Shown in pieces: positions 52,691 through 64,000 of a stretch of DNA of 64,000 nucleotides. The notes under the pieces are model-generated. The model saw only the letters and a list, made by a program, of their open reading frames with translations, was not told where the DNA came from and did not search any database. Made by a program: the position numbers and the translations under genes. The first letter of the stretch is position 1, and each line of letters starts with the position of its first letter. The DNA comes from a bacterium HR16 (GTDB taxonomy: Bacteria; Armatimonadota; HRBIN16). The stretch spans positions 7,106-71,105 of the forward strand of contig BEHS01000001.1 of the NCBI GenBank assembly GCA_002898895.1, given 5' to 3'.

Positions 52691-53541
52691 GTGTGCCGCA
52701 GGTAAGCGTTATCGTGCCCATGTACAACGAGGAAGCGAACCTCCCCGAGCTGCACGCCCGTCTGACGAAGGTGCTGACCGGCATAGACGCCTCCAGCGAA
52801 ATCATCTATGTGGACGACGGCAGCACCGACAGCACGCCGGACCAGCTGGAGATGCTGTTGCAACAGCCTCAACCGGTGTGCGTGCGCGCGGTGCGGTTGC
52901 CTCGCAGGCGTGGGAAGACCGCCGCGCTGTCCGCCGGTTTCGCCATCGCGCGGGGAAGCATCCTGGTGACCACAGACGCCGACCTGCAGGAACCTCCCGA
53001 AGTGCTACCCATGCTTCTCTCACGAGTGCGGTCCGGCGAGGCGCATCTGGTGGTGGCGTGGCGACAACAGAGGCAGGATACCCTCTTCCGTGTGCTTGCC
53101 TCGCGCCTGTTCAACACCACCCTGCACTGGCTGACCGGTCTCTCCCTGCACGATGTGAACTGCGGCACCAAAGCCATGAAGCGCGAAGTGGCGGAGAACC
53201 TGGAAGGCTGGATGATTTCCGATATGCACCGCTACCTGCCTGTTCTGGCAGCGCGAATGGGATACCGTGTCGCGGAGGCTCCGGTGCCTCATGTGGCGCG
53301 TCGTCGCGGGCACAGCCGCTTTGGAGCCAGTCGGTACCTTCGAGCAATAGTGGACCTGTTGCCTGTCTCGCTGATGTGGTGGCGCGGATGGCAGGTGTGG
53401 CTGACGCTGGTGGCGGTATCCATCTGGCTGACGGCGACGCATCATCCGGTCGGCTGGCTCGGTCTGGCGATGGCGGTGGCATGGGCAGGAAGCGCACTGG
53501 CGTTCTGGTGGAAGTATGACTTTCCATCACCGGGGCGTTGA
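52687..53541 (+). CDS. GT2 polyprenol-phosphate glycosyltransferase (Ppm1/GtrB/ArnC-like)
   Basis: VSVIVPMYNEE...IYVDDGSTD...DADLQ motifs plus two C-terminal TM helices. ATGA overlap with upstream gene. Confidence 0.85.
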   Translation: MSVPQVSVIVPMYNEEANLPELHARLTKVLTGIDASSEIIYVDDGSTDSTPDQLEMLLQQPQPVCVRAVRLPRRRGKTAALSAGFAIARGSILVTTDADLQEPPEVLPMLLSRVRSGEAHLVVAWRQQRQDTLFRVLASRLFNTTLHWLTGLSLHDVNCGTKAMKREVAENLEGWMISDMHRYLPVLAARMGYRVAEAPVPHVARRRGHSRFGASRYLRAIVDLLPVSLMWWRGWQVWLTLVAVSIWLTATHHPVGWLGLAMAVAWAGSALAFWWKYDFPSPGR

Positions 53542-55533: not shown

Positions 55534-57078
55534 ATGACCCGTGTGAGCGTGTGGGACGGCGCAGGTTGTGTTGGAGGCAATAAAATCCTGCTACAGGATG
55601 ACGACCTGACTCTGTGGCTGGACTTCGGGCAGAACCTCAGCCGCCTGATGGACTATTATGAGGAGTACCTGAAACCCCAGAAGGGGCGCGGGCTGTACGA
55701 GCTGTTTGTAATGGAATTACTGCCCCCCGTGTACGGCATCTATCACGAACGCTTTCTGGACGATTATCCCTTCGACGACTGGCGCGTCCGACTGGATGGG
55801 GTGGACAGTGTACTGCTCTCGCACGCGCATTCCGACCATGCGGGCGACCTGCAATACCTCCTGCCTGACATCCCGCTGGTCTGCTCCGCCGAGAGCGCGC
55901 TGTTACTGCGCGCCCTGCAGGACTGCAGCAGCCTCGACGACGGCACGATTTACGTACGCCGGTTCGAACTCAAGGAGGGCGAGTTCAGGAAGCTGGCGTG
56001 GAACCGCAGAGAGTCGCCCCTCGCCACTTTCCGCCCCGTACTGACCGCCGACGGCGACACGGAAGCGATGCAATCCTTCTGGAGCGAACTGCCCGGCGGA
56101 CACCATGACAAATGCGACCTGCAGCCGCTGGAGGCGTTCAACGGGCGGATAAAGGACTACGAGGTGCGCTTCTTCCCATTAGACCACTCCATCCCCGGCG
56201 CGGGTGCGTGGGCGGTGCAGACGAGCGCGGGATGGGTGGTATATACAGGCGACCTGCGCTTTCGAGGCGAGCGCAAACACCTCACCGAGCGATTTATGGA
56301 AGAGGCAGCACGGCTACAACCGGTTGCACTCATCATCGAGGGCACGCGCATCACGCGCACCGGCTCCGGCCACACCGAAGACGATGTGCAGGAAGAGTTC
56401 GCCAGACTGCTAAAACAGCACGCCCAACGGCTGGTGAGTGCAAACTTCTCGATGACCCATCTGGAACGTCTGAAGCGGTTCTGGCATACCGCCCGCGAAT
56501 GCGGCAGGCAGGTGGTGGTGAACCCCAAAGACCTGTACCTGCTCCATGCGTGGCGCCAGAGCGGATACGAGCTGCCGTTAGACGACGGCTCCTTGCGCGT
56601 GTATCAGGGCGTGGGCAAACCGCCTTCCGAATCGTGGGAGAAGGCTCTGCACGAACTGTATGGCAACCTGTGCATCACCGCACAGCAAATCTCGCGCCAT
56701 CCCGACCAGTACCTGCTCTGCTTCGGCTACTTCGACCTCAACGAGCTGCCGTACCTGAAGGTTTCAAATGGGTTATGGATACAATCCTTCAGCGAGCCGA
56801 TGACGGAGGAACAGCGTATCGACGACCGACGGCTCAACCGGTGGCTACAGCACTTCGGTTTCACACGCGAACCACCGCAGGGCGACCCGGACGATGAAAG
56901 GGTGCCCCTGCACGTGTCAGGACACGCCTCCGGCGAGGAGCTGGCAAGGGTGATAGAGACCATCCGCCCGAAGACGCTGATTCCGGTGCACACTACCGAA
57001 CCGGCAGCTTTCGTGGAGCGGTTCTCGGGTATAAGTAAGGTGATACTCCCTGAAATCGGAGAGGAGATACGCTTATGA
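55534..57078 (+). CDS. MBL-fold beta-CASP ribonuclease (RNase J-like)
   Basis: HAHSDHAGD metallo-beta-lactamase motif and beta-CASP HVSGHASGEEL motif. Confidence 0.7.
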   Translation: MTRVSVWDGAGCVGGNKILLQDDDLTLWLDFGQNLSRLMDYYEEYLKPQKGRGLYELFVMELLPPVYGIYHERFLDDYPFDDWRVRLDGVDSVLLSHAHSDHAGDLQYLLPDIPLVCSAESALLLRALQDCSSLDDGTIYVRRFELKEGEFRKLAWNRRESPLATFRPVLTADGDTEAMQSFWSELPGGHHDKCDLQPLEAFNGRIKDYEVRFFPLDHSIPGAGAWAVQTSAGWVVYTGDLRFRGERKHLTERFMEEAARLQPVALIIEGTRITRTGSGHTEDDVQEEFARLLKQHAQRLVSANFSMTHLERLKRFWHTARECGRQVVVNPKDLYLLHAWRQSGYELPLDDGSLRVYQGVGKPPSESWEKALHELYGNLCITAQQISRHPDQYLLCFGYFDLNELPYLKVSNGLWIQSFSEPMTEEQRIDDRRLNRWLQHFGFTREPPQGDPDDERVPLHVSGHASGEELARVIETIRPKTLIPVHTTEPAAFVERFSGISKVILPEIGEEIRL

Positions 57079-57560
57079 AGATAGGCATCATGGCGGACAG
57101 TCACGATAACCTGCCCAAAATCCGCGCGGCGATGGAGCTGTTCGAGCGCGAGGGCGTGGGGCTGATACTGCACGCGGGCGATTTCGTAGCGCCCTTTGCG
57201 GTGCGGGCGATGCACGACGCGCCCTGCCGGGTGGTGGCGGTGTTCGGCAACAACGATGGCGAGCGCATTGGGTTATCCAGAGCCTTCGAGCCCATCGGCG
57301 AGGTGCATCCCCGAATCGCCGTCGTGGAGGCGGACGGCAAGCGGGTCGGCGTGGTGCATCAGGACGAGCTGGTTGCGCCCATCGCGGCGGGCAATGCGCT
57401 GGACATGCTGGTGTACGGACACACCCACCGGCTGGACATCCGCCGCGAGGGTCAGGTGCTGGTGGTCAATCCGGGCGAAGTGGGCGGCTGGCTCACGGGC
57501 AAGTGTACGGTGGTTATACTGGATACGCAAACGATGGAGCCGAGGGTGTGGGAGGTGTGA
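57075..57560 (+). CDS. YfcE/MJ0936-family metallophosphoesterase
   Basis: MADSHDN, GDFV, GNND, GHTH motifs. ATGA overlap with upstream gene. Confidence 0.8.
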   Translation: MKIGIMADSHDNLPKIRAAMELFEREGVGLILHAGDFVAPFAVRAMHDAPCRVVAVFGNNDGERIGLSRAFEPIGEVHPRIAVVEADGKRVGVVHQDELVAPIAAGNALDMLVYGHTHRLDIRREGQVLVVNPGEVGGWLTGKCTVVILDTQTMEPRVWEV

Positions 57561-57573
57561 GCAGAGGCGAGGT

Positions 57574-60352
57574 CTACCAGAAGTGCATGCGCCTGCGGCA
57601 ACGCTCGGCGTCTGCGGTCGACCCTGCTTTCTCATAGTTCAGTATGGCTAAGTAATACAGTCGTGCTCGCTCGTAGCACCGAGCAGCCTCCAGAGGCATA
57701 TCAGCCTTTTCAAACCACTGCCCAGCCTCTGACCAGTTTCCCTGTTGCATGTTCCACACCCCCCCAACACCAAAAAGAGTCTCTCCCTCTGCCTGCTTGT
57801 CCGTAGCACTGAGCCGCCTTCGCGTAATCTTCCGCTCGTACGTAGCAGCTGGCCGCCTTTGCGTAATCCCCTAACCGCTGATAGCAACCGGCCGCCTTCG
57901 CGTAATCCCCTGCTCTTATATAGCAACTAGCAGCATCTGGAAGCAAATAAGCTTTTTCAAACCACTGCCCTGCTTCTAACCAGTTGCCTTGTCCTTCGTA
58001 AAACTTCCCCCAACACTGTGCGGCATCCCTTGTCCTGCTGGTTTGCTCGTAACATCTTGCAGCATTGGAGTAGTCCTTCGCTTGCTCATAACACCGACCC
58101 GCGTTGGAGTAGTCCTTCGCTTGCTCATAACACCGACCCGCGCTGGAGTAGTCCTTCGCTTGCTCATAACACCGACCCGCGTTGGCATACTGCCTTTCCT
58201 TCTAGTACAACTCCGCAGCTTCCTCGAGACGTCCAGACCATTCCATCCGCCGTGCCCTAGTCCAGATAGCTGGGTTTGTTGTCAATGCCTCATAGCTCCT
58301 CACCACCACCCTCTCCGCCGCCTCCCACGCGCTCAGCCATTGCTTGCTCAGCTTCGGCAGCGAAGGGGGCAAGCTCTGGGGGGTGTCTTCCACAACCACC
58401 AGCCCCCTCCGCGCTCGCGTCAGAGCCACATACAGGCGCGAGAAAGCCTGCAGACGGAGCACCGGAGACCTTCGCACCTGTTCGTGCATCCGGGAATAGA
58501 TGTTGAACAAAATGACCCGGTCGAACTCCAGGCCCTTTGCCTCTTCCACAGAACACAGCAGCGCGCCGTGCTGACCCAATTGCTGTGCTATGGGAATGTT
58601 TTTATCGCTTTCATCCCACACGATAACCGCTCCCTGGTCGCCAAGCCACTCCGCCAGCTGTTGCGCGCTGAGGGCAGGTGAATCGAGCGTTGCAGCAGCA
58701 GGAGGCAGTCCATCTAACAGCGCCGTCACATGGTAATCCGGCATTTCATCGAGGTCGTATTCCCTCTTGATCCGTTCGAGCTCCCCCTGCACGAACAGGG
58801 CAATCTGTCGGCTGTTGCGCAGGTTCAACTTCAGCGAGCCTTCCAGAACCGTTACCTCTTGCGAAAGCCTCCTGACAAGCCTGTTCCAGTGGAAACCGGA
58901 CGGACGCAACGCCTGGAAGGGGTCACCGGTGAGGAACAGCCCCGCGGGATGCCGTACCAGGCGCATGAGCAACATCCACTGCACTTCGCACAGGTCCTGA
59001 ATCTCGTCCACATATACGCCGTCGTATGAAGCGACGACCTTTTCGGGTTGTTCCCACAGCTTACGGCTCAGGTCCAGCTCGTCCGATCCGCCGATTGGGA
59101 ACCAGGTTTGGATGGCAGCAAAGATTGCCTCGCGCTCTTGCACAGAGAAGTCACTCGCCGCATTGTGCAAATAGCCTTCGCGGTCCAGTAATTGGCGCGT
59201 TTGCCAGTTGAGCTGACCTTTGATGACGTCCCAGTATTCTGCCCACAATGTCTCCTCATCCCAGGGGAACTCCCTGTGGCGACGCTTCCACGACCTGAGA
59301 GGCTCTTTCAGGTTCCCCATCTTCCAGACCTCTTTGACACGCTGGTACGCCTCATGAAACTGCCTGCGCATCTCGGTGTAGCTCTCTATCCGTACGTTGG
59401 GGAACCAGCGGCTTAACATATCTTCGTAGCTGAGAATATCTACCCTCTCCAGTAACTCCCGTCCTCTCGGTAAGTGCTCAAAGAGCAGCTGACACAGGGA
59501 GGTTAACGTCGGCGAATAGGTGACCACCAGATACCTGCCGGCGGGGTTCGCTCGAGCCTGACGATATAAGTGATAGAGCAGGATGGTGGTTTTGCCGCTA
59601 CCTACCGTTCCGCTCAGCAGTAGCGGACCCGGCTTCCGCACGAACTCCATCTGCTCCGGCAAGAGGTGCAGCAGGAAATCTTCGTCGCTCTGCGCGAGAT
59701 GCTCGATATCCTGCTCAATACGGTCCAGGCCGATCTCCAAAAACTCCTGCGCGTCATACAGGCTCTCCTGCTCCACCGATGACGCTTGCTCCAGCCACCA
59801 TTCCTCACCCCTGTAGTGCGGGCGGATGTACTGGTTGAGCACACTCTTACCTGTCTTAACCTCCCTTTCCACTATCGAGAGAGGCACGGTAGGATACTCG
59901 GGCAGTTTGCTGATGCCTATTTCCTCCAGTATGCCTTGTTCGTGCAGGCTGCTCGCAAGGCACAGCTCTTCCGCCTGATGGAGCGAATCATACGAGATAC
60001 GGCGGGCGGCGCTCAGGGCATCGTCATGATGGTCTACGTCCCACACAACAATACGGTCGCGCAAGTGGTTGCCATCCGAGCGACCTGTCCCTCCGTTTGC
60101 ACCGCCGTACTCGTGGGCGGGTTGTATGGTGAAGATGAGGCGCACATCACGGTTGACTCGCGCCTCGAACACGGGACGGTCAACACCTTTGAGACGTTTC
60201 ATGCGCAAGCCGAGGTGGTCGGTTTGCCCTTCGCAGAGCAAACGCACGCATTTGCTCACCTGGTCGTGTGGTAAAGCCTTTTCTCTCAGTTTCTTCTGTA
60301 CCCTGCGATGGAGGACGACGCTGCGCTTCATGAGCACCCTCTCTGGAGACAA
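57574..60352 (-). pseudogene. UvrD-like SF1 helicase with RelE/ParE-like N-terminal domain and C-terminal 13-residue repeat array, interrupted by in-frame TAG (58202-58204) and a frameshift (about 57740)
   Basis: Walker A GTVGSGKTT, motif II DEIQD, motif VI VALTRARRGL. After TAG the same frame continues KERQYANAGRCYEQAKDYSSAGRCYEQAKDYS... to 57710, then a shifted frame continues to 57574. Confidence 0.6.
58067..58183. repeat. perfect 39-bp tandem repeat x3 (GGAGTAGTCCTTCGCTTGCTCATAACACCGACCCGCGYT), coding for 13-aa units
   Basis: Three head-to-tail copies differing at one position. Degenerate 39-bp units continue to about 57780. Confidence 0.85.
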
Positions 60353-60552
60353 ACTCTTGTCACATCATAGCATATCCCTTAAACACTTTGCAAGCGGTTC
60401 GTGAACAAAAAGGCAGGATTCTCGCACTCCTACAGGAACTGTGCTCTCCGCCACGAAAAGAGTAGCCGCAGGCTTCAGCCTGTGCCAGTGATACGCAACC
60501 TGAAGGTTGAGGCTGCGTTTGGAATCACATTTGATGCTCTAGGAGGGCGGGC

Positions 60553-61869
60553 ATGAGCGTTCTGTTTGTCCTACTCCCCGCGCTGGCGATGTGCCTGGGG
60601 TGGGGTATTCGTGGACAGTTTGGTGGCGAGACGGGCGCGATGGTGCCCGGCGCGATGGTGGGGCTCGCGCTGGCGATGCTGGCAGGCTGGAGGGGCAAAG
60701 AGGCAGCGCGTCTGGCAGCGGTAGCAGCCTTCGCCTGCTCGTTGGGCGGAATGATGACCTACGGGCAGACCATCGGGCTGGTGCAAAACCAGTACCCCTC
60801 ACCGACCTACTGGTGGGGGCTGCTGGGATTGGCTATCAAGGGTGGCGTGTGGATTGGCATTACCGGTGCGTTTCTGGCGATAGCCACCAGTGACCGCTAT
60901 CGTCCGGGGGAACTGCTGGCGATGATTGTCGGCATGTTCGTGCTGGGCGCGATTGGCATGCAGCTGCTCAACCGCCCGCATAACCCACCGGAGCAGTTGC
61001 CCCTCATCTACTTCTCCGCGCGGAACGACCCCAAGCCGCGTGTGGAGTGGTGGGGTGGACTGTGGTTCGCGCTCATCGGCTTGATGGCGTACACCGGCGC
61101 GTTCAAGAAGCACCGGCAGGCGGTGGCGATGGCGCTATGGGGCATCGTGGCGGGAGCCATCGGTTTCAGCTTCGGCGAGGTGCTGCAGGCATGGGGAACG
61201 CACCAGAAACCCTTCGGCGAGGCGGTTCAACGCTGGATGGACTGGTGGAAGGTAATGGAGATGACCTTCGGCTTCATCGCAGGCGCAGGGCTGGGCATCG
61301 GCTGGAAGGTTACCGGACTATCGGCTACTCCGCCCCCCAAACCCCAAACCTGGCACCGCCGCTGGGACGACCTCACCATCTTGCTCTGGCTGATACCGGT
61401 GCTGGCGGTGGAACTGGGCATCGGCTGGGCGAAAGGATGGGAAAAACTGCCTGCGATATGGATGCTGATTGGACTGCTGGGCAGTCTGGCAGGTAGCGGC
61501 TGGGCGCCGTTCGGCACGGGCGTGGCGGTCACGCTGGTTTCTGCGAGCAATACGGTGCTTTATCTGGTGGACGAGCGCAAACTGCTCGCCTTCGGCTGGG
61601 GCTTCGCCGGTTTGGTGGTTCTGTTGTTCATCACCGCCTACCTCTCCGCGCTCTGGCATCGGCGGGAGGTGCCTGCGCGCACCTGGTGGCTGTGGACGGT
61701 ATGGATGCAGACGGGGCTGACGTGGGCGAAGTATCTGCCGGAGGTACTTTTGAAACCCGACGAGCGCAACTGGTTCGTGCGCTGGGGTTCGGGAGGCGTA
61801 GTAGAGATGAGTTTTGTGGTGCTGGCGGTGATACTTACCCTGCTGGTCTCCACACGCAAGGAGGTTTAA
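60553..61869 (+). CDS. polytopic integral membrane protein, unknown function
   Basis: About 12 predicted TM helices, Trp/Gly-rich. No soluble domains. Confidence 0.5.
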   Translation: MSVLFVLLPALAMCLGWGIRGQFGGETGAMVPGAMVGLALAMLAGWRGKEAARLAAVAAFACSLGGMMTYGQTIGLVQNQYPSPTYWWGLLGLAIKGGVWIGITGAFLAIATSDRYRPGELLAMIVGMFVLGAIGMQLLNRPHNPPEQLPLIYFSARNDPKPRVEWWGGLWFALIGLMAYTGAFKKHRQAVAMALWGIVAGAIGFSFGEVLQAWGTHQKPFGEAVQRWMDWWKVMEMTFGFIAGAGLGIGWKVTGLSATPPPKPQTWHRRWDDLTILLWLIPVLAVELGIGWAKGWEKLPAIWMLIGLLGSLAGSGWAPFGTGVAVTLVSASNTVLYLVDERKLLAFGWGFAGLVVLLFITAYLSALWHRREVPARTWWLWTVWMQTGLTWAKYLPEVLLKPDERNWFVRWGSGGVVEMSFVVLAVILTLLVSTRKEV

Positions 61870-61874
61870 CCCGT

Positions 61875-62052
61875 TGGAGGGACGCGCTCCGTCGCATCCG
61901 CAAAATCAACCTGTTGGAGGGACGCGCTCCGTCGCGTCCTGAATACAGCGGTCACGATGGAGCGTGACCCTCCAGCAGGGCAATCGGTGAGAGTACAGTT
62001 ACAGCCGCAGATACCTGATCGGATGGACGGCTCGGACGGAGCCTCGCCCTCC
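61875..62052. repeat. cluster of family-3 (x2 direct, x1 inverted) and family-2 (inverted) hairpin repeats
   Basis: GGAGGGACGCGCTCCGTCGC at 61875 and 61915. GGTCACGATGGAGCGTGACCCTCC at 61950. CGGCTCGGACGGAGCCTCGCCCTCC at 62028. Confidence 0.55.
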
Positions 62053-62059
62053 GTCAGCG

Positions 62060-62296
62060 TTACGTTGTCGCAGGTTTCTCGCCTTGCGAGGTTCCTCCCT
62101 CCTTCAGCGTACGGATGCCCAGCACTTTATACAGCGGGCAGAAAGCCACAATGCTCGTTACCAGCAGTATCAGCGCGATGATGCCGAGCACCCACGCCGC
62201 AATCGCTTTCACCGTGCCCAGTGCAATGAGCACGGCGAGCACGACCGCAATCACTACCCGAATCACGCGGTCCACAACGCCCATGTTCTTTTCCAT
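62060..62296 (-). CDS. DUF2892 (YgaP-like) small membrane protein
   Basis: D-R-x-I-R motif, two TM helices and conserved FCPLYKVLGI. Confidence 0.6.
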   Translation of the reverse strand: MEKNMGVVDRVIRVVIAVVLAVLIALGTVKAIAAWVLGIIALILLVTSIVAFCPLYKVLGIRTLKEGGTSQGEKPATT

Positions 62297-62356
62297 AGAA
62301 GCACACCTCCTCCCAGAGGATGTATTCCCGCTCCCCTCTTTATATACGGTGTATCC

Positions 62357-63175
62357 CTACACCGGCGTGCCCACCTCCAGCTCTTCGGGATTCAGTGCGC
62401 CCTTGCCGAAGATAATGGGAAAGGTTCCACCGTCGCTCAGACGGCGCGTGCGCCCATCCATATAACACACGCTGAACGCCCGTCGCGGGATGTCTATGGT
62501 GTTGACGCCGGAACCGTGCAACAGCCAGTTATGCAACAGGATGGCTTCGCCCGCTTCCGCCTCCAGATAGACCACTTTCTCCTCCGGGCAGTACATCGCT
62601 TCCTGCTCAGGGGTAATCGTGTGCCCCCACTCGCTGAGCAAGCCCAGCCGATGCGTGCCCGGCACCACGCGCACACAGCCGTTTTCTTTAGTAGCCGGGT
62701 CCAGCGCGGTCCAGATGGTCACGACCGGGTCGCGGTCCAGACCCCACTGTAGCCCTGCATCCTGGTGCCAGGGCAGAATCGTTCCCTTCTGAGCGGGCTT
62801 GTTCATGAACATCGCACGATAGCAGGCGATGGGCGCGTGCGCTCCGTAAACGGTTGCGCAAATCTCGCGAAAGATGGGCTTCTGCATGTAGCGCAGGAAC
62901 ACGGGGTCGTACTCCAGATTCTGAATCTTGCGGTAGCTGAGTGTGGGCCCCTTAAAGCCCAGCGTCTGTTCGGGCAGGTCCTCGTAACGCCCCGTTTCGC
63001 CATCCAGCTGCATTAACAGGCGGTCGTAGTTGATGTTCGCCTTGCCCAGCATGATGTCGTCGATGCGCTGGCGCATCTGCTCCAGCTCCTGCTCGGTCAT
63101 TACCTTGCCCAGGCGCAGGTAGCCGTTTTTAAAGTATTCGCACCACTGCTCGTCGGTAATGAAGGTATTGAACAC
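62357..63175 (-). CDS. phytanoyl-CoA dioxygenase (PhyH) family Fe(II)/2-oxoglutarate oxygenase
   Basis: HQD...H 2-His-1-carboxylate pattern (LPWHQDAG, LLHGSGVN) and family-typical length. Confidence 0.8.
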   Translation of the reverse strand: MFNTFITDEQWCEYFKNGYLRLGKVMTEQELEQMRQRIDDIMLGKANINYDRLLMQLDGETGRYEDLPEQTLGFKGPTLSYRKIQNLEYDPVFLRYMQKPIFREICATVYGAHAPIACYRAMFMNKPAQKGTILPWHQDAGLQWGLDRDPVVTIWTALDPATKENGCVRVVPGTHRLGLLSEWGHTITPEQEAMYCPEEKVVYLEAEAGEAILLHNWLLHGSGVNTIDIPRRAFSVCYMDGRTRRLSDGGTFPIIFGKGALNPEELEVGTPV

Positions 63176-63413
63176 GCTGAACCCTCCTCCTCGTACAGTG
63201 CGTTTATTGATGCTAAATTATACGTTGGCAGGCACCCTTTGTCAACCGTTCGAGGGGGCAACGTTGTTTGAGCGATAGAGTACAGCGTGCGCGGGAAAAT
63301 CCTCAAGAATTTTTCAAAAAATTCCGAAAACTCTTGCAATTTTTATGAGGATATGCTAGGATATAACTAGCGTAGCAAAACACTCCCGTGCGGGACCATG
63401 GTGGAGGTTAGCC

Positions 63414-64000
63414 ATGAAGCACACTGACAAAGGGCTTCTGCTCGCAGTGTGGGCAATTATCACCATGTTGCTCACCGGTACAGCGCTACTGCCGGCGCAG
63501 GCGAAGAAGAAGCCTCCTTCCCACACCCAATCGGCAGTTACCCTCTTAGGCAAAGCGCGTGGGGAGCCAATTCCCGGCTATCAGTTTCCCCTGCGGTATG
63601 AGACCTCTGTAGCACACACCCGTCCTGAGAAAGCCAACTCTGGTTTCCTTACCGGTCCCCAATACCTGCGGGAAGGGCAGGTTCTGGGCAATGAGGGCGT
63701 GGTGGAGGCAGGTCGCTTCATCCTCCCCTTCGGCACCAAGGGCGAGAAGGTCGCGCTGGCTTTCCTCAGCGGAGAATACGTGCCACCACAGGGCGAAAAA
63801 CTGCAACCCGCGCTGGCACAACTGGCGCAACAGCGCGCCGCGCAACTCTCCACGCAAGGCTCCAGCGCCAGACCAAGCGTGTACGCGCTCATCCTGCTCA
63901 ACGGCAGGCTGGACGAAGGCTTGCAGGCGTGGCTGGCAGAGCGCGGAGTGGAACTGTTTGGCTTTTACCCGTATACCGCCTATCAGGCGCGCATCCCCGT
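63414..64000 (+). CDS. secreted protein, partial (continues off-window)
   Basis: RBS GGAGG 6 nt upstream of ATG 63414. Signal peptide LLTGTALLPAQA. Confidence 0.4.
   Translation, partial: MKHTDKGLLLAVWAIITMLLTGTALLPAQAKKKPPSHTQSAVTLLGKARGEPIPGYQFPLRYETSVAHTRPEKANSGFLTGPQYLREGQVLGNEGVVEAGRFILPFGTKGEKVALAFLSGEYVPPQGEKLQPALAQLAQQRAAQLSTQGSSARPSVYALILLNGRLDEGLQAWLAERGVELFGFYPYTAYQARIP

What the first reader, a model, noticed from the sequence alone, without database searches (positions are those of the whole stretch)
58067..58183. Perfect 39-bp tandem repeats inside the helicase C-terminal region: a likely slippage-prone, length-variable tract
Three head-to-tail 39-bp units are identical except for one C/T. 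Upstream, down to about 57780, the units become progressively degenerate. Because 39 = 3 x 13 the repeats add or remove whole 13-aa units without frameshifting. Such young perfect repeats imply recent expansion or contraction and could make this protein phase- or length-variable. The nearby frameshift may be a by-product of repeat instability or of assembly collapse.
Basis: seen in the sequence. Interest (0 to 1): 0.55.

Follow-up and report, generated by a model that had tools for sequence, protein, structure and literature searches.

The report
Variable 13-residue repeats in helicase tail
The perfect 39-bp repeats are real and encode single-helix units of a TPR-like tail on an uncharacterised helicase of a hot-spring bacterium; the tail differs in unit number between close strains, an ordinary kind of coding-repeat variation and not an on/off switch.

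Summary
Three head-to-tail 39-bp units sit at 58065-58181 with one C/T difference, against 0 matches expected by chance.

The coding strand is minus. Each unit encodes AGRCYEQAKDYS(N/S), which an AlphaFold model of a homologue predicts as a 10-residue helix plus a 3-residue turn. The units belong to a roughly 210-residue TPR/SNAP-like solenoid (57574-58219). This is the C-terminal domain of a RelE-fold + UvrD-like SF1 helicase family found at a conserved chromosomal locus in Armatimonadota. The window is bacterium HR16.

Length variability is supported:
- Contigs 99.9-100% identical outside the array differ by one unit or by three units.
- Homologues carry tails of about 250 to about 730 residues, many with their own near-perfect 39/90/129-bp repeats.

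Phase variation is not supported, because 39 = 3 x 13.

The helicase ORF here ends at an in-frame TAG (58202-58204), 21 nt before the perfect units. A 99.96%-identical contig from another run reads GAG there, so the stop is private to this assembly (SNP or error).

The "nearby frameshift" is a +1 insertion in a C7 run (57759-57765), about 300 bp from the perfect repeats. Five independent contigs reproduce it, so it is real and is not an assembly artefact of this MAG.

The exact copy number remains unresolved, because all short-read contigs break inside the array.

The parts
58064..58180 (-). Three near-identical 39-bp units (units 2-4) encoding AGRCYEQAKDYSS / AGRCYEQAKDYSN / AGRCYEQAKDYSN.
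58181..58219 (-). Unit 1 of the array (AAELY*KERQYAN). It is the degenerate first unit and contains the in-frame stop.
58202..58204 (-). In-frame TAG that ends the 709/716-aa helicase ORF. Position 58204 is A here but C (codon GAG, Glu) in the 99.96%-identical contig L013. The sister strains L001 and L005 also read GAG.
58025..58063 (-). Unit 5 (AARCYEQTSRTRD), a diverged unit preceding module 1. The alternative allele L010 departs from the window in this stretch and in the codons just 3' of it (from about 58017 upward on the + strand).
57935..58024 (-). Module 1, 30 aa: AAQCWGKFYEGQGNWLEAGQWFEKAYLLPD. It is an interspersed longer-helix module found throughout the family.
57818..57934 (-). Second 39-bp sub-array, three diverged units: AASCYIRAGDYAK / AAGCYQRLGDYAK / AASCYVRAEDYAK. 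Conserved residues carry synonymous differences between units.
57759..57765 (-). C7 (G7 on the coding strand) homopolymer with one base too many, giving a +1 frameshift. Removing one G restores module 2 (CWGVWNMQQGNWSEAGQWFEKA) in exact register with module 1.
57710..57712 (-). TGA that ends the array reading frame after the frameshift. An allele with GAG at 58202-58204 would therefore give an 873-aa product.
57574..57759 (-). Stranded terminal part of the array in the +1 frame: module 2, the last units and the family-type C-terminus ...AERCRRRMHFW*. It remains open for 61 codons.
58205..60331 (-). Helicase ORF. It is 709 aa from the ATG, as annotated for bacterium HR16, or 716 aa from a TTG at 60352. 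It has a UvrD/PcrA-like SF1 core with Walker A GSGKTT and a DExQD motif.
60011..60331 (-). N-terminal domain of about 107 residues with a predicted RelE/YafQ/YoeB/ParE-type fold.

Best explanation
The 39-bp repeats are codons, not a DNA-level signal. Read on the minus strand, each unit encodes 13 residues with consensus A-[AG]-R-C-Y-E-Q-A-x-D-Y-x-x. An AlphaFold model of a full-length homologue predicts each unit as one 10-residue helix plus a 3-residue turn. Stacked units form a TPR/SNAP-like alpha-solenoid in which every helix is equivalent, so single units can be gained or lost.

This solenoid is the C-terminal domain of a three-part protein: an N-terminal RelE-fold domain, a UvrD-like SF1 helicase, and the repeat tail. 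The gene sits at a conserved chromosomal position in Armatimonadota. By analogy with other TPR-like arrays, the tail most likely serves as a partner-binding scaffold (inferred).

Because neighbouring units are nearly identical at the DNA level, replication slippage or unequal recombination adds and removes whole units in frame (mechanism inferred). This produces strain-to-strain length and order variation and keeps units within one genome more alike than units between lineages (shown by comparison). The three perfect copies here are the newest product of that process.

In this particular assembly the tail is cut off from the helicase by a single-base GAG-to-TAG change. A 99.96%-identical contig from another run lacks that change, so it is a private SNP or a consensus error. 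Separately, the whole lineage carries a real one-base insertion in a G7 run that truncates the last ~60 residues of the tail.
For: Repeat reality and frame:
- The repeats are real and far beyond chance.
- The frame and the unit table are shown.
- Conserved residues in the diverged units carry synonymous changes (GCG/GCA, GCC/GCT, TAT/TAC), which indicates selection on the protein.

Repeat type and fold:
- Pfam hits above the curated cut-offs on the tail: TPR_2 53.5 bits, SNAP 28.6, AdAR repeat PF02071 28.9.
- AF2 model of the full-length homologue P0013: mean pLDDT 84.7, tail about 90, helices of 10 residues every 13 residues.

The tail belongs to the helicase gene:
- Homologues read straight through from the helicase into the array, for example P0001 AAELYEGVRHYSNAARCYEQ....
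- Tails measured from the ALTRARRG helicase motif span about 250-730 residues, with spacings of 13 and 30 residues.

Strain-level variation:
- L005 has +117 bp (3 units) relative to L001, at 99.9% identity.
- L010 is 100% identical to the window for 2.3 kb and then shows a different array allele.
- L007 has one more unit than P0016.
- The window has 4 canonical 13-residue units after degenerate unit 1 and before module 1, where L001 has 7 and L005 has 10.
- Flanks between the window and L001 are 98.3-98.5% identical, while the array cannot be aligned.

Family-wide pattern:
- Near-perfect 39/90/129-bp repeats occur in L002, L003, L004 and L007.
- Mean unit identity within one protein is 0.60-0.66, against 0.40-0.55 between lineages.

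Stop codon and frameshift:
- The TAG is private to the window. L013 differs from the window at only 2 of 5630 positions, and one of them is 58204 A>C, giving GAG.
- The frameshift is real. L008, L009, L011 and L012 are 100% identical to the window across the C7 run, and L010 also carries it.

Selection on the helicase:
- dN/dS is 0.26 for the helicase part between the window and L001.
Against: - No read-level data were available. Every copy-number comparison is between short-read metagenome assemblies, which can collapse or mis-thread tandem repeats.
- L001 lacks a 117-bp block whose flanks are 78 bp of exact duplication in L005. That is exactly the kind of loop an assembler can drop.
- All Logan contigs end inside the array (58156, 58128, 57988, 57944, 57882). 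The count of three perfect units in the window therefore has no independent confirmation.
- The partner-binding role of the tail and the slippage/recombination mechanism are inferences from the repeat type, not tested.
- If the TAG is real in HR16, the perfect repeats are untranslated in that genome. There is no in-frame start before 57946.
Confidence: 0.8

Rival explanations
1. Decaying pseudogene. The tail, and perhaps the whole gene, is being lost in this lineage, and the perfect repeats are a neutral, untranslated relic behind a nonsense codon and a frameshift.
For: - The window has an in-frame TAG 21 nt before the perfect units and a +1 frameshift further on.
- The frameshift is fixed in all five contigs of the lineage.
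- Tail-less relatives of about 690-720 aa exist, so a helicase without the array is viable as a protein.
Against: - The TAG is absent from a contig that differs from the window at only 2 of 5630 positions.
- The 709-aa helicase part is uninterrupted, with dN/dS 0.26 against the sister strain.
- Between the TAG and the frameshift the 165-codon array frame has no other lesion. After the frameshift the +1 frame stays open for 61 codons up to the family-type terminus.
- C-terminal ends inside arrays also occur in other members, for example ...AEQGGQP* in P0008, P0011 and P0014. Truncation of a solenoid therefore need not mean loss of function.
Confidence: 0.15
2. Assembly artefact. The number of perfect 39-bp units in the window (and in L001, L005 and L010) is set by how assemblers threaded a repeat, not by biology. 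The true array may be longer and may be invariant.
For: - All Logan contigs break inside the array. L013 ends at 58156, exactly at the first 31-mer shared between units (the k-mer reasoning is my inference).
- L006 ends 86 bp past the matched helicase segment.
- L001 has only 5.5x coverage, judging from its contig name.
- The L001/L005 difference is a loop flanked by 78 bp of exact repeat.
Against: - The units themselves are seen independently from both sides: L013 reaches into unit 2, and L010 reaches into a canonical EQAKDYSN unit.
- The L010 allele differs by about 25 substitutions over roughly 110 bp as well as by one unit. That is not what repeat collapse produces.
- L005's extra block contains a unit (AARCYEQAQDYPD) that is found nowhere in L001.
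- Lineage-specific unit consensus sequences and very different array architectures across the family cannot all be artefacts.
Confidence: 0.3
3. Contingency (phase-variable) locus. Expression of the tail is switched on and off by slippage in the repeats or in the G7 tract.
For: A 7-nt G/C homopolymer inside the ORF carries the frameshift. Perfect tandem repeats lie nearby.
Against: - A 39-bp unit is a multiple of 3 and cannot change the frame.
- The homopolymer has the same length (7) in all five contigs from five runs, so no tract-length polymorphism is seen.
- Seven bases is short for a contingency tract (general knowledge).
- Restoring the frame needs a +1 shift, whereas the G_GGG_GGU context would favour -1 (my reading).
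Confidence: 0.03
4. DNA- or RNA-level element, such as a protein-binding array, a CRISPR-like array or a regulatory repeat, that merely overlaps a coding region.
For: None beyond the perfect tandem arrangement.
Against: - There are no spacers and no inverted repeats.
- The periodicity, the reading frame and the residue pattern (A..CY..A..Y) are conserved in dozens of homologues whose DNA has diverged.
- The same repeat type is found in 1495 representative proteins, attached to helicases and to kinases.
Confidence: 0.01

Closest known systems
Intragenic variable-number tandem repeats in bacterial repeat-protein genes, for example the 108-bp repeats in Legionella pneumophila TPR/Sel1-family and enhC genes (PMC2639597)
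   Same: In-frame tandem DNA repeats encode helical repeat units. Copy number differs between strains. The unit length is a multiple of three, so the outcome is length variation and not on/off switching.
   Different: - The unit here is 39 bp (13 aa, one helix), against 108 bp (36 aa, a helix pair).
- The host protein here is a cytoplasmic helicase of an uncultured thermophile, not a secreted or eukaryote-like effector.
- Variation here is inferred from metagenome assemblies and not from PCR sizing.
TPR / SNAP (aromatic-di-alanine, AdAR, PF02071) helical repeats
   Same: Pfam TPR_2, TPR_7, SNAP and AdAR models hit the tail above their cut-offs. The predicted structure is a stack of antiparallel helices. 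The tail shows the Y-x-x-A-A signature of the 12-residue AdAR repeat.
   Different: - The period is 13 residues per helix (26 per hairpin), not 34.
- All helices are of one sequence type, so there is no A/B alternation and single-unit indels are tolerated.
- There is an almost invariant Cys-Tyr pair in every unit.
- 30-residue CW...QGNW..A.QW[FY]E.A modules are interspersed.
UvrD/PcrA/Rep SF1A helicases and the RNA-polymerase-recycling ATPases HelD/HelR
   Same: Pfam UvrD-helicase and UvrD_C_2 score above their cut-offs. Walker A and DExQD motifs are invariant. The Foldseek top hits are PcrA, UvrD, HelD and Rep.
   Different: - Identity to solved helicases is only 12-17%.
- The protein scores far below every NCBIfam equivalog cut-off, for example HelR 29 bits against 750.
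- It carries an N-terminal RelE-fold domain and a C-terminal repeat solenoid, which none of those families have.
TPR-type sensor arrays of STAND/Avs-like defence NTPases, and GajB-type defence helicases
   Same: An NTPase is fused to a C-terminal helical repeat array that differs between strains. PADLOC GajB models hit the helicase motifs.
   Different: - The PADLOC hits are partial and generic (E about 1e-12, over 50-80 residues).
- There is no GajA/OLD partner gene.
- The gene sits in conserved chromosomal synteny across genera (Metallophos_2 + MBL/RMMBL downstream, a membrane protein upstream), not in a defence island.

Membership tests
Length-variable intragenic tandem repeat (coding VNTR) | Head-to-tail copies with high identity, beyond chance | tested here: met
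   3.1 copies at 97% identity, TRF score 235. Three hits with at most 1 mismatch, against 0.00 expected.
Length-variable intragenic tandem repeat (coding VNTR) | Unit length is a multiple of 3 and lies in the reading frame of a protein-coding gene | tested here: met
   39 = 3 x 13, and the frame is continuous with the helicase. In this assembly a TAG intervenes; the 99.96%-identical L013 reads GAG.
Length-variable intragenic tandem repeat (coding VNTR) | Copy number differs between strains or within a population | tested here: inconclusive
   Differences of 1 and 3 units between contigs that are 99.9-100% identical in their flanks. These are assembly-level data only. No long reads or PCR were available.
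Phase-variable contingency locus | Repeat changes shift the reading frame or promoter spacing | tested here: not met
   The unit is a multiple of 3 and lies inside the ORF.
Phase-variable contingency locus | Homopolymer tract length is polymorphic among cells or samples | tested here: not met
   The C7 run at 57759-57765 is identical in five contigs from five runs. Within-sample read data were not available.
TPR / SNAP-AdAR helical repeat | Significant match to the family profiles | tested here: met
   TPR_2 53.5 bits (cut-off 27), TPR_7 44.5 (27.9), SNAP 28.6 (25), AdAR PF02071 28.9 (27).
TPR / SNAP-AdAR helical repeat | Canonical 34-residue helix-turn-helix unit | tested here: not met
   The dominant Cys-to-Cys spacing is 13 residues, with 30-residue modules. 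The model shows 10-residue helices every 13 residues.
TPR / SNAP-AdAR helical repeat | Antiparallel alpha-helical solenoid fold | tested here: met
   In the AF2 model of P0013 the tail is all helix-turn-helix, with pLDDT about 89-94. This is a prediction only.
UvrD/PcrA/Rep-type SF1 helicase | Helicase motifs and profile matches above cut-off | tested here: met
   UvrD-helicase 33.2 bits (cut-off 23) and UvrD_C_2 30 (27.4). GSGKTT, DExQD and the other motifs are invariant in 12 members.
UvrD/PcrA/Rep-type SF1 helicase | Fold | tested here: met
   Foldseek top hits are PcrA 1pjr, UvrD 4c2t/2is4, HelD 6yxu and Rep 1uaa, with E from 3e-11 to 4e-10.
UvrD/PcrA/Rep-type SF1 helicase | ATP-dependent unwinding or translocation | not testable with these tools
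   This needs biochemistry.
RelE/ParE toxin superfamily (N-terminal domain) | Fold | tested here: met
   AF2 model with pLDDT 79.6. The top 22 Foldseek PDB hits are all RelE/YafQ/YoeB/ParE-type toxins apart from rank 18 (8phj_X, ribosome-bound Cami1). TM-scores normalised to the target are about 0.53-0.72.
RelE/ParE toxin superfamily (N-terminal domain) | Sequence-family membership (curated cut-off) | tested here: not met
   ParE_like scores 14.2 bits against a cut-off of 24.4. HigB-like matches 3 of 12 members at best E 1.4e-4. PDB profile hits have E 0.04-0.5.
RelE/ParE toxin superfamily (N-terminal domain) | Catalytic residues and a cognate antitoxin | not tested
   No antitoxin-like gene is adjacent in the window or in the related loci. 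Catalytic residues were not analysed.
Gabija GajB / defence-island helicase | Partner gene (GajA OLD nuclease) and a variable defence-island context | tested here: not met
   Neighbours are Metallophos_2, MBL/RMMBL and a membrane protein, conserved across genera. The PADLOC hits are partial.

The most novel reading that the evidence does not exclude
The repeat tail is a fast-diversifying recognition module. In two strains whose flanking genes are 98.4% identical, the helicase gene is a mosaic of 67-100%-identical blocks and the tail is completely rebuilt. This pattern would fit a RelE-fold/helicase/solenoid protein engaged in a conflict, for example sensing or resisting a phage or mobile-element protein as the TPR sensor arrays of Avs/STAND systems do. 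In that reading, unit gain and loss would generate new specificities.
Probability: 0.1. Interest if true: 0.6.

Novelty: new member of a known kind. Interest (0 to 1): 0.35.

Why it matters
The main value is as a worked example and a caution. A perfect coding minisatellite in a MAG turned out to be:
- a genuine protein repeat;
- variable between near-identical strains;
- a place where assemblies break and where single-base calls (here a TAG) can make a gene look truncated.

It also defines an uncharacterised, lineage-wide protein architecture in Armatimonadota: a RelE-fold domain, a UvrD-like helicase, and a solenoid of single-helix 13-residue Cys-Tyr units. Its tail evolves by unit turnover.

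If the tail sets partner specificity, its strain-level variability would be functionally meaningful. At present nothing indicates a new mechanism.

Tried and rejected
- **Pseudogene reading.** I first took the locus as a pseudogene (TAG plus frameshift). This was downgraded after anchoring on exact neighbour proteins recovered same-strain Logan contigs: GAG replaces TAG in L013, and the frameshift is fixed in five contigs.
- **TAG recoding.** Rejected. TAG ends 12 of 38 long ORFs in the window, including this gene's own ancestral end.
- **Programmed frameshifting at the G7 run.** The direction needed is +1, and the context G_GGG_GGU would favour -1. There is no support.
- **Defence-system membership.** PADLOC gives only partial GajB-like helicase-motif hits, and the synteny is chromosomal and conserved.
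- **Exact look-up of the annotated 709-aa product.** Nothing was found.
- **The P0005 group as 'strains'.** L002 and L004 are only about 91% identical in DNA, so they are related species and not strains.
- **L004 frameshifts.** L004 has several split genes, so its array frameshifts are probably sequencing errors.
- **Literature searches.** No paper on this helicase-repeat family was found.
- **Alternative ORFs over the repeats.** The + strand ORFs (57989-58681 and 58018-58260) and the +1-frame minus ORF (57976-58188, MPTRVGVMSKRRTTP...) have no support from homologues. I treat them as spurious.
Full report
**1. The observation**

- The plus strand carries three adjacent copies of TTGGAGTAGTCCTTCGCTTGCTCATAACACCGACCCGCG at 58065-58103, 58104-58142 and 58143-58181. 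The only difference is C for T at 58143.
- None of 100 dinucleotide-preserving shuffles of the window gave a single match.
- TRF scores the array at 235 (period 39, 3.1 copies, 97%). It finds one other period-39 array in the 64 kb, immediately beside it at 57813-57927 (2.9 copies, 72%).

**2. What the repeats encode**

- The minus strand holds a 716-aa ORF (58202-60352; 709 aa from the ATG at 60331), which is a UvrD-like helicase.
- Continuing in the same frame past its stop codon, the translation reads ...AAELY*KERQYAN AGRCYEQAKDYSS AGRCYEQAKDYSN AGRCYEQAKDYSN AARCYEQTSRTRD AAQCWGKFYEGQGNWLEAGQWFEKAYLLPD AASCYIRAGDYAK AAGCYQRLGDYAK AASCYVRAEDYAK AAQCYGQAGRGRDSFWCWG....
- Each 39-bp unit is thus one 13-residue unit with the pattern A-x-x-C-Y-x-x-A-x-x-Y-x-x.
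- In coding register the three young units (58180-58064) differ at two sites, one non-synonymous (AGC/AAC, Ser/Asn) and one synonymous (AAC/AAT).
- In the older units the conserved residues carry synonymous differences (GCG/GCA, GCC/GCT, TAT/TAC). This shows that the protein sequence has been under selection, not the DNA.
- The layout is modular rather than a smooth gradient: 4-5 units, a 30-residue 'CWG...QGNW.EAGQWFEKA' module, 3-4 units, a second copy of that module (81% identical at DNA level, family D3), and terminal units ending at 57574.

**3. Two lesions in this assembly**

*The in-frame stop.*
- The helicase ORF ends at an in-frame TAG (plus-strand CTA at 58202-58204), 21 nt before the first perfect unit and inside degenerate unit 1.
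- TAG is an ordinary stop codon in this genome, ending 12 of 38 long ORFs.

*The frameshift.*
- After ...FWCWG the frame is lost in a run of seven G (C7 at 57759-57765 on the plus strand).
- Deleting one G gives CWGVWNMQQGNWSEAGQWFEKADMPLEAARCYERA...AERCRRRMHFW*.
- This puts module 2 in exact register with module 1. It ends with the C-terminus typical of the family (compare ...ARCRKLALQGHQ...TRCRKLARQW and ...DRCRRKARRWWW in P0004, P0010 and P0016).
- The ancestral gene therefore ran from 60331 to 57574, about 920 residues.

**4. Identity of the genome and the family**

- The 709-aa helicase is 100% identical to 'ATP-dependent helicase/nuclease subunit A [bacterium HR16]'.
- HRBIN16 is used as a family-level clade name within Armatimonadales (PMC9671151).
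- About 20 close homologues (51-77% identity) share one architecture:
  - an N-terminal domain of about 110 residues;
  - an SF1 helicase core;
  - a tail of 13-residue units interspersed with 30-residue modules, spanning about 250 to 730 residues when measured from the ALTRARRG helicase motif.
- All of them read straight from the helicase into the array. The closest, P0001, has AAELYEGVRHYSNAARCYEQ where the window has AAELY*KERQYANAGRCYEQ, so TAG corresponds to GAG.
- The locus is syntenic in every contig examined. The gene converges on a 161-aa Metallophos_2 gene and a 514-aa MBL/RMMBL gene, and in most loci a membrane-protein gene of about 440 aa lies upstream.
- One named source genome is Chthonomonadia bacterium Ch118.
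- This is a vertically inherited chromosomal gene, not an island.

**5. Structure**

- An AlphaFold model of the full-length homologue P0013, built with a 24-sequence alignment, has mean pLDDT 84.7.
- Its tail (pLDDT about 89-94) is a regular series of 10-residue helices separated by 3-residue turns. Each 13-residue unit is one helix, and the 30-residue modules contribute 14-residue helices.
- The core superposes on PcrA, UvrD, Rep and HelD.
- The tail scores above Pfam cut-offs for TPR_2, TPR_7, SNAP and the 12-residue aromatic-di-alanine repeat PF02071.
- All helices are of one sequence type, so there is no A/B alternation as in 34-residue TPRs. Adding or removing a single unit simply lengthens or shortens the solenoid. 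This fits the odd-numbered unit differences described in section 6.
- The repeat type is not rare. A search with the 146-residue window array found 1495 cluster representatives at E <= 1e-3 and 351 at E <= 1e-10. The sampled hits were UvrD-like helicases and Ser/Thr protein kinases.

**6. Is the array length-variable?**

*Closest strains.*
- L001 (ENA) and L005 (JGI) are syntenic with the window, with flanks 98.3-98.5% identical.
- The helicase part is only 90.6% identical and the array cannot be aligned.
- After degenerate unit 1 and before module 1 the window has 4 canonical units, L001 has 7 and L005 has 10.

*L001 versus L005.*
- They are 99.9% identical over 11 kb and differ by a 117-bp block of three units. 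One unit of that block, AARCYEQAQDYPD, is unique to L005.

*Same-strain contigs.*
- Exact look-up of the window's own neighbour proteins recovered same-strain Logan contigs.
- L010 (DRR101365) is 100% identical to the window from 55683 to about 58016. It then continues with a different array allele, ...EQAKDYSNAVRCHEKAKDYAKAAKCCERAGKEGDAARCWGKFYEG..., where the window has ...EQAKDYSNAARCYEQTSRTRDAAQCWGKFYEG....
- That is one extra unit plus about 25 substitutions.

*Other lineages.*
- In another lineage the NCBI MAG (L007) has one more unit than the Logan-derived P0016.
- Proteins whose helicase parts are 97-99.6% identical carry tails of 196-651 residues with different unit orders. At least some of these come from related species and not strains, since L002 and L004 are about 91% identical in DNA.
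- Near-perfect 39-, 90- and 129-bp repeats (93-100% matches) occur in L002, L003 and L004, and an 80% array in L007.
- Mean unit identity within a protein (0.60-0.66) exceeds that between lineages (0.40-0.55). This is the signature of ongoing unit turnover.
- Two members, P0004 and P0006, have old, diverged arrays (0.36-0.44).

*Caveat.* All of this rests on short-read assemblies. Every Logan contig ends inside the array (58156, 58128, 57988, 57944, 57882), and L013 ends exactly where the first 31-mer shared between units begins (my inference). The number of perfect units in the window therefore has no independent confirmation.

**7. Are the stop codon and the frameshift real?**

- L013 (ERR14790943) matches the window from 58156 to 63785 with two mismatches. 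One is at 58204 (A in the window, C in L013), which turns TAG into GAG. Its gene call runs on through ...AAELYEKERQYANAGRCYEQA to the contig end.
- The nonsense codon is therefore private to the HR16 assembly. It is either a real SNP in that population or a consensus error, and reads are needed to decide.
- By contrast, L008, L009, L011 and L012 (four different runs) are 100% identical to the window across the C7 run, and L010 also has C7.
- The frameshift is thus a genuine, apparently fixed feature of this lineage. It lies about 300 bp from the perfect repeats and is unrelated to assembly of the 39-mers.
- With GAG, the lineage's product would be 873 aa, ending at the TGA at 57710-57712 and lacking the last ~60 ancestral residues.
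- Ends inside 'CW' modules are also seen in other members (...AEQGGQP* in P0008, P0011 and P0014). The solenoid's end therefore seems tolerant of truncation.
- The helicase part shows purifying selection against the sister strain (dN/dS 0.26).

**8. Interpretation**

- The best-supported reading is an ordinary but clear case of a coding minisatellite. Identical 39-bp units are substrates for replication slippage or unequal recombination (inferred), which changes the number of helices in a TPR-like solenoid without touching the frame.
- 'Length-variable' is supported at the level of assemblies.
- 'Phase-variable' is not supported. The unit is a multiple of three, and the only frame-changing tract (G7) shows no length polymorphism among five runs.
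- The tail's function is unknown. By analogy with TPR/SNAP-type arrays it is most likely a protein-binding scaffold attached to the helicase (inference).
- PADLOC gives only generic helicase-motif hits to GajB models, and the conserved chromosomal synteny argues against a defence island.
- The strongly mosaic divergence of the helicase gene between strains with 98.4%-identical flanks (100-bp blocks from 67% to 100% identity; local dS up to 0.95) leaves room for a conflict-driven reading. I rate that at about 10%.

**9. Comparison with what is known, and novelty**

- Copy-number-polymorphic in-frame repeats in bacterial TPR/Sel1-type genes are documented, for example the 108-bp repeats in Legionella pneumophila (PMC2639597).
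- The present case is a new member of that kind. Its distinctive details are a 13-residue single-helix unit with a Cys-Tyr pair, and a RelE-fold + UvrD-like helicase host protein.
- I found no literature on this family.
- Interest is moderate to low for the repeat itself. The practical lesson is that the MAG's 'truncated helicase' is probably an artefact or a private allele, and that the array's copy number cannot be trusted without long reads.

Noticed in passing
window 60011-60331 (-): The first ~107 residues of the helicase form a domain whose AF2 model matches RelE/YafQ/YoeB/ParE toxins: 21 of the top 22 Foldseek PDB hits, with TM-scores normalised to the target of about 0.53-0.72. Sequence profiles stay below the Pfam cut-offs. 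No antitoxin-like gene is adjacent.
   Followed up: partly
window 58205-60331 versus L001 219-2350: Between two strains whose flanking genes are 98.3-98.5% identical, the helicase gene is a mosaic of 100-bp blocks ranging from 67% to 100% identity. Local dS reaches 0.95 and overall dN/dS is 0.26. This suggests recombination with divergent alleles. The divergent blocks are not closer to L003 or L002.
   Followed up: partly
window 53458-53511 versus L001 7612-8349 and L005 4976-5713: The sister strains carry an insertion of about 740 bp that is absent from the window. It holds two small genes (105 aa and 103 aa, the second with HTH_3/MqsA-antitoxin-like hits), so it looks like a toxin-antitoxin-like cassette indel flanked by a 54-bp duplicated stretch.
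   Followed up: no
L001 2990-3437 (P0001 residues ~925-1072): In the sister strain the gene does not end at the family-type ...RCR... terminus. It continues for about 130 residues through a glycine-rich, membrane-helix-like segment (GAAIGLLLGAAIGELLFGLLGVLLGGFLGAAVG). The window has nothing equivalent.
   Followed up: no
window 57976-58188 (-): A 70-codon ORF in the +1 frame of the repeats (MPTRVGVMSKRRTTP repeated) starts at an ATG preceded by AAGGAAAGG, directly after the TAG. No homologue supports it, so it is probably a by-product of the repeat.
   Followed up: partly
window 55534-57560 (+), and L001-L004, L007: The helicase-repeat gene always converges on a Metallophos_2 (161 aa) plus MBL/RMMBL (about 514 aa, RNA-metabolising beta-lactamase-type) gene pair. 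This holds across lineages whose helicases are only 51-77% identical. A functional link was not examined.
   Followed up: no
P0008, P0011, P0014 (C-termini); L004 10697-11026: Several family members end abruptly inside a 'CW' module (...AEQGGQP*). In L004 the array continues out of frame past the called stop. L004 also has other split genes (SRP54, a UvrD homologue), which suggests an error-prone assembly.
   Followed up: partly
window 62203: This is the only other difference between the window and the Logan contigs L013 and L014 in the region both cover (T in the window, C in both contigs). L014 also differs from the window at 59573, which L013 does not. At 62203 the HR16 assembly therefore differs from two independent runs, as it does at 58204.
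   Followed up: no
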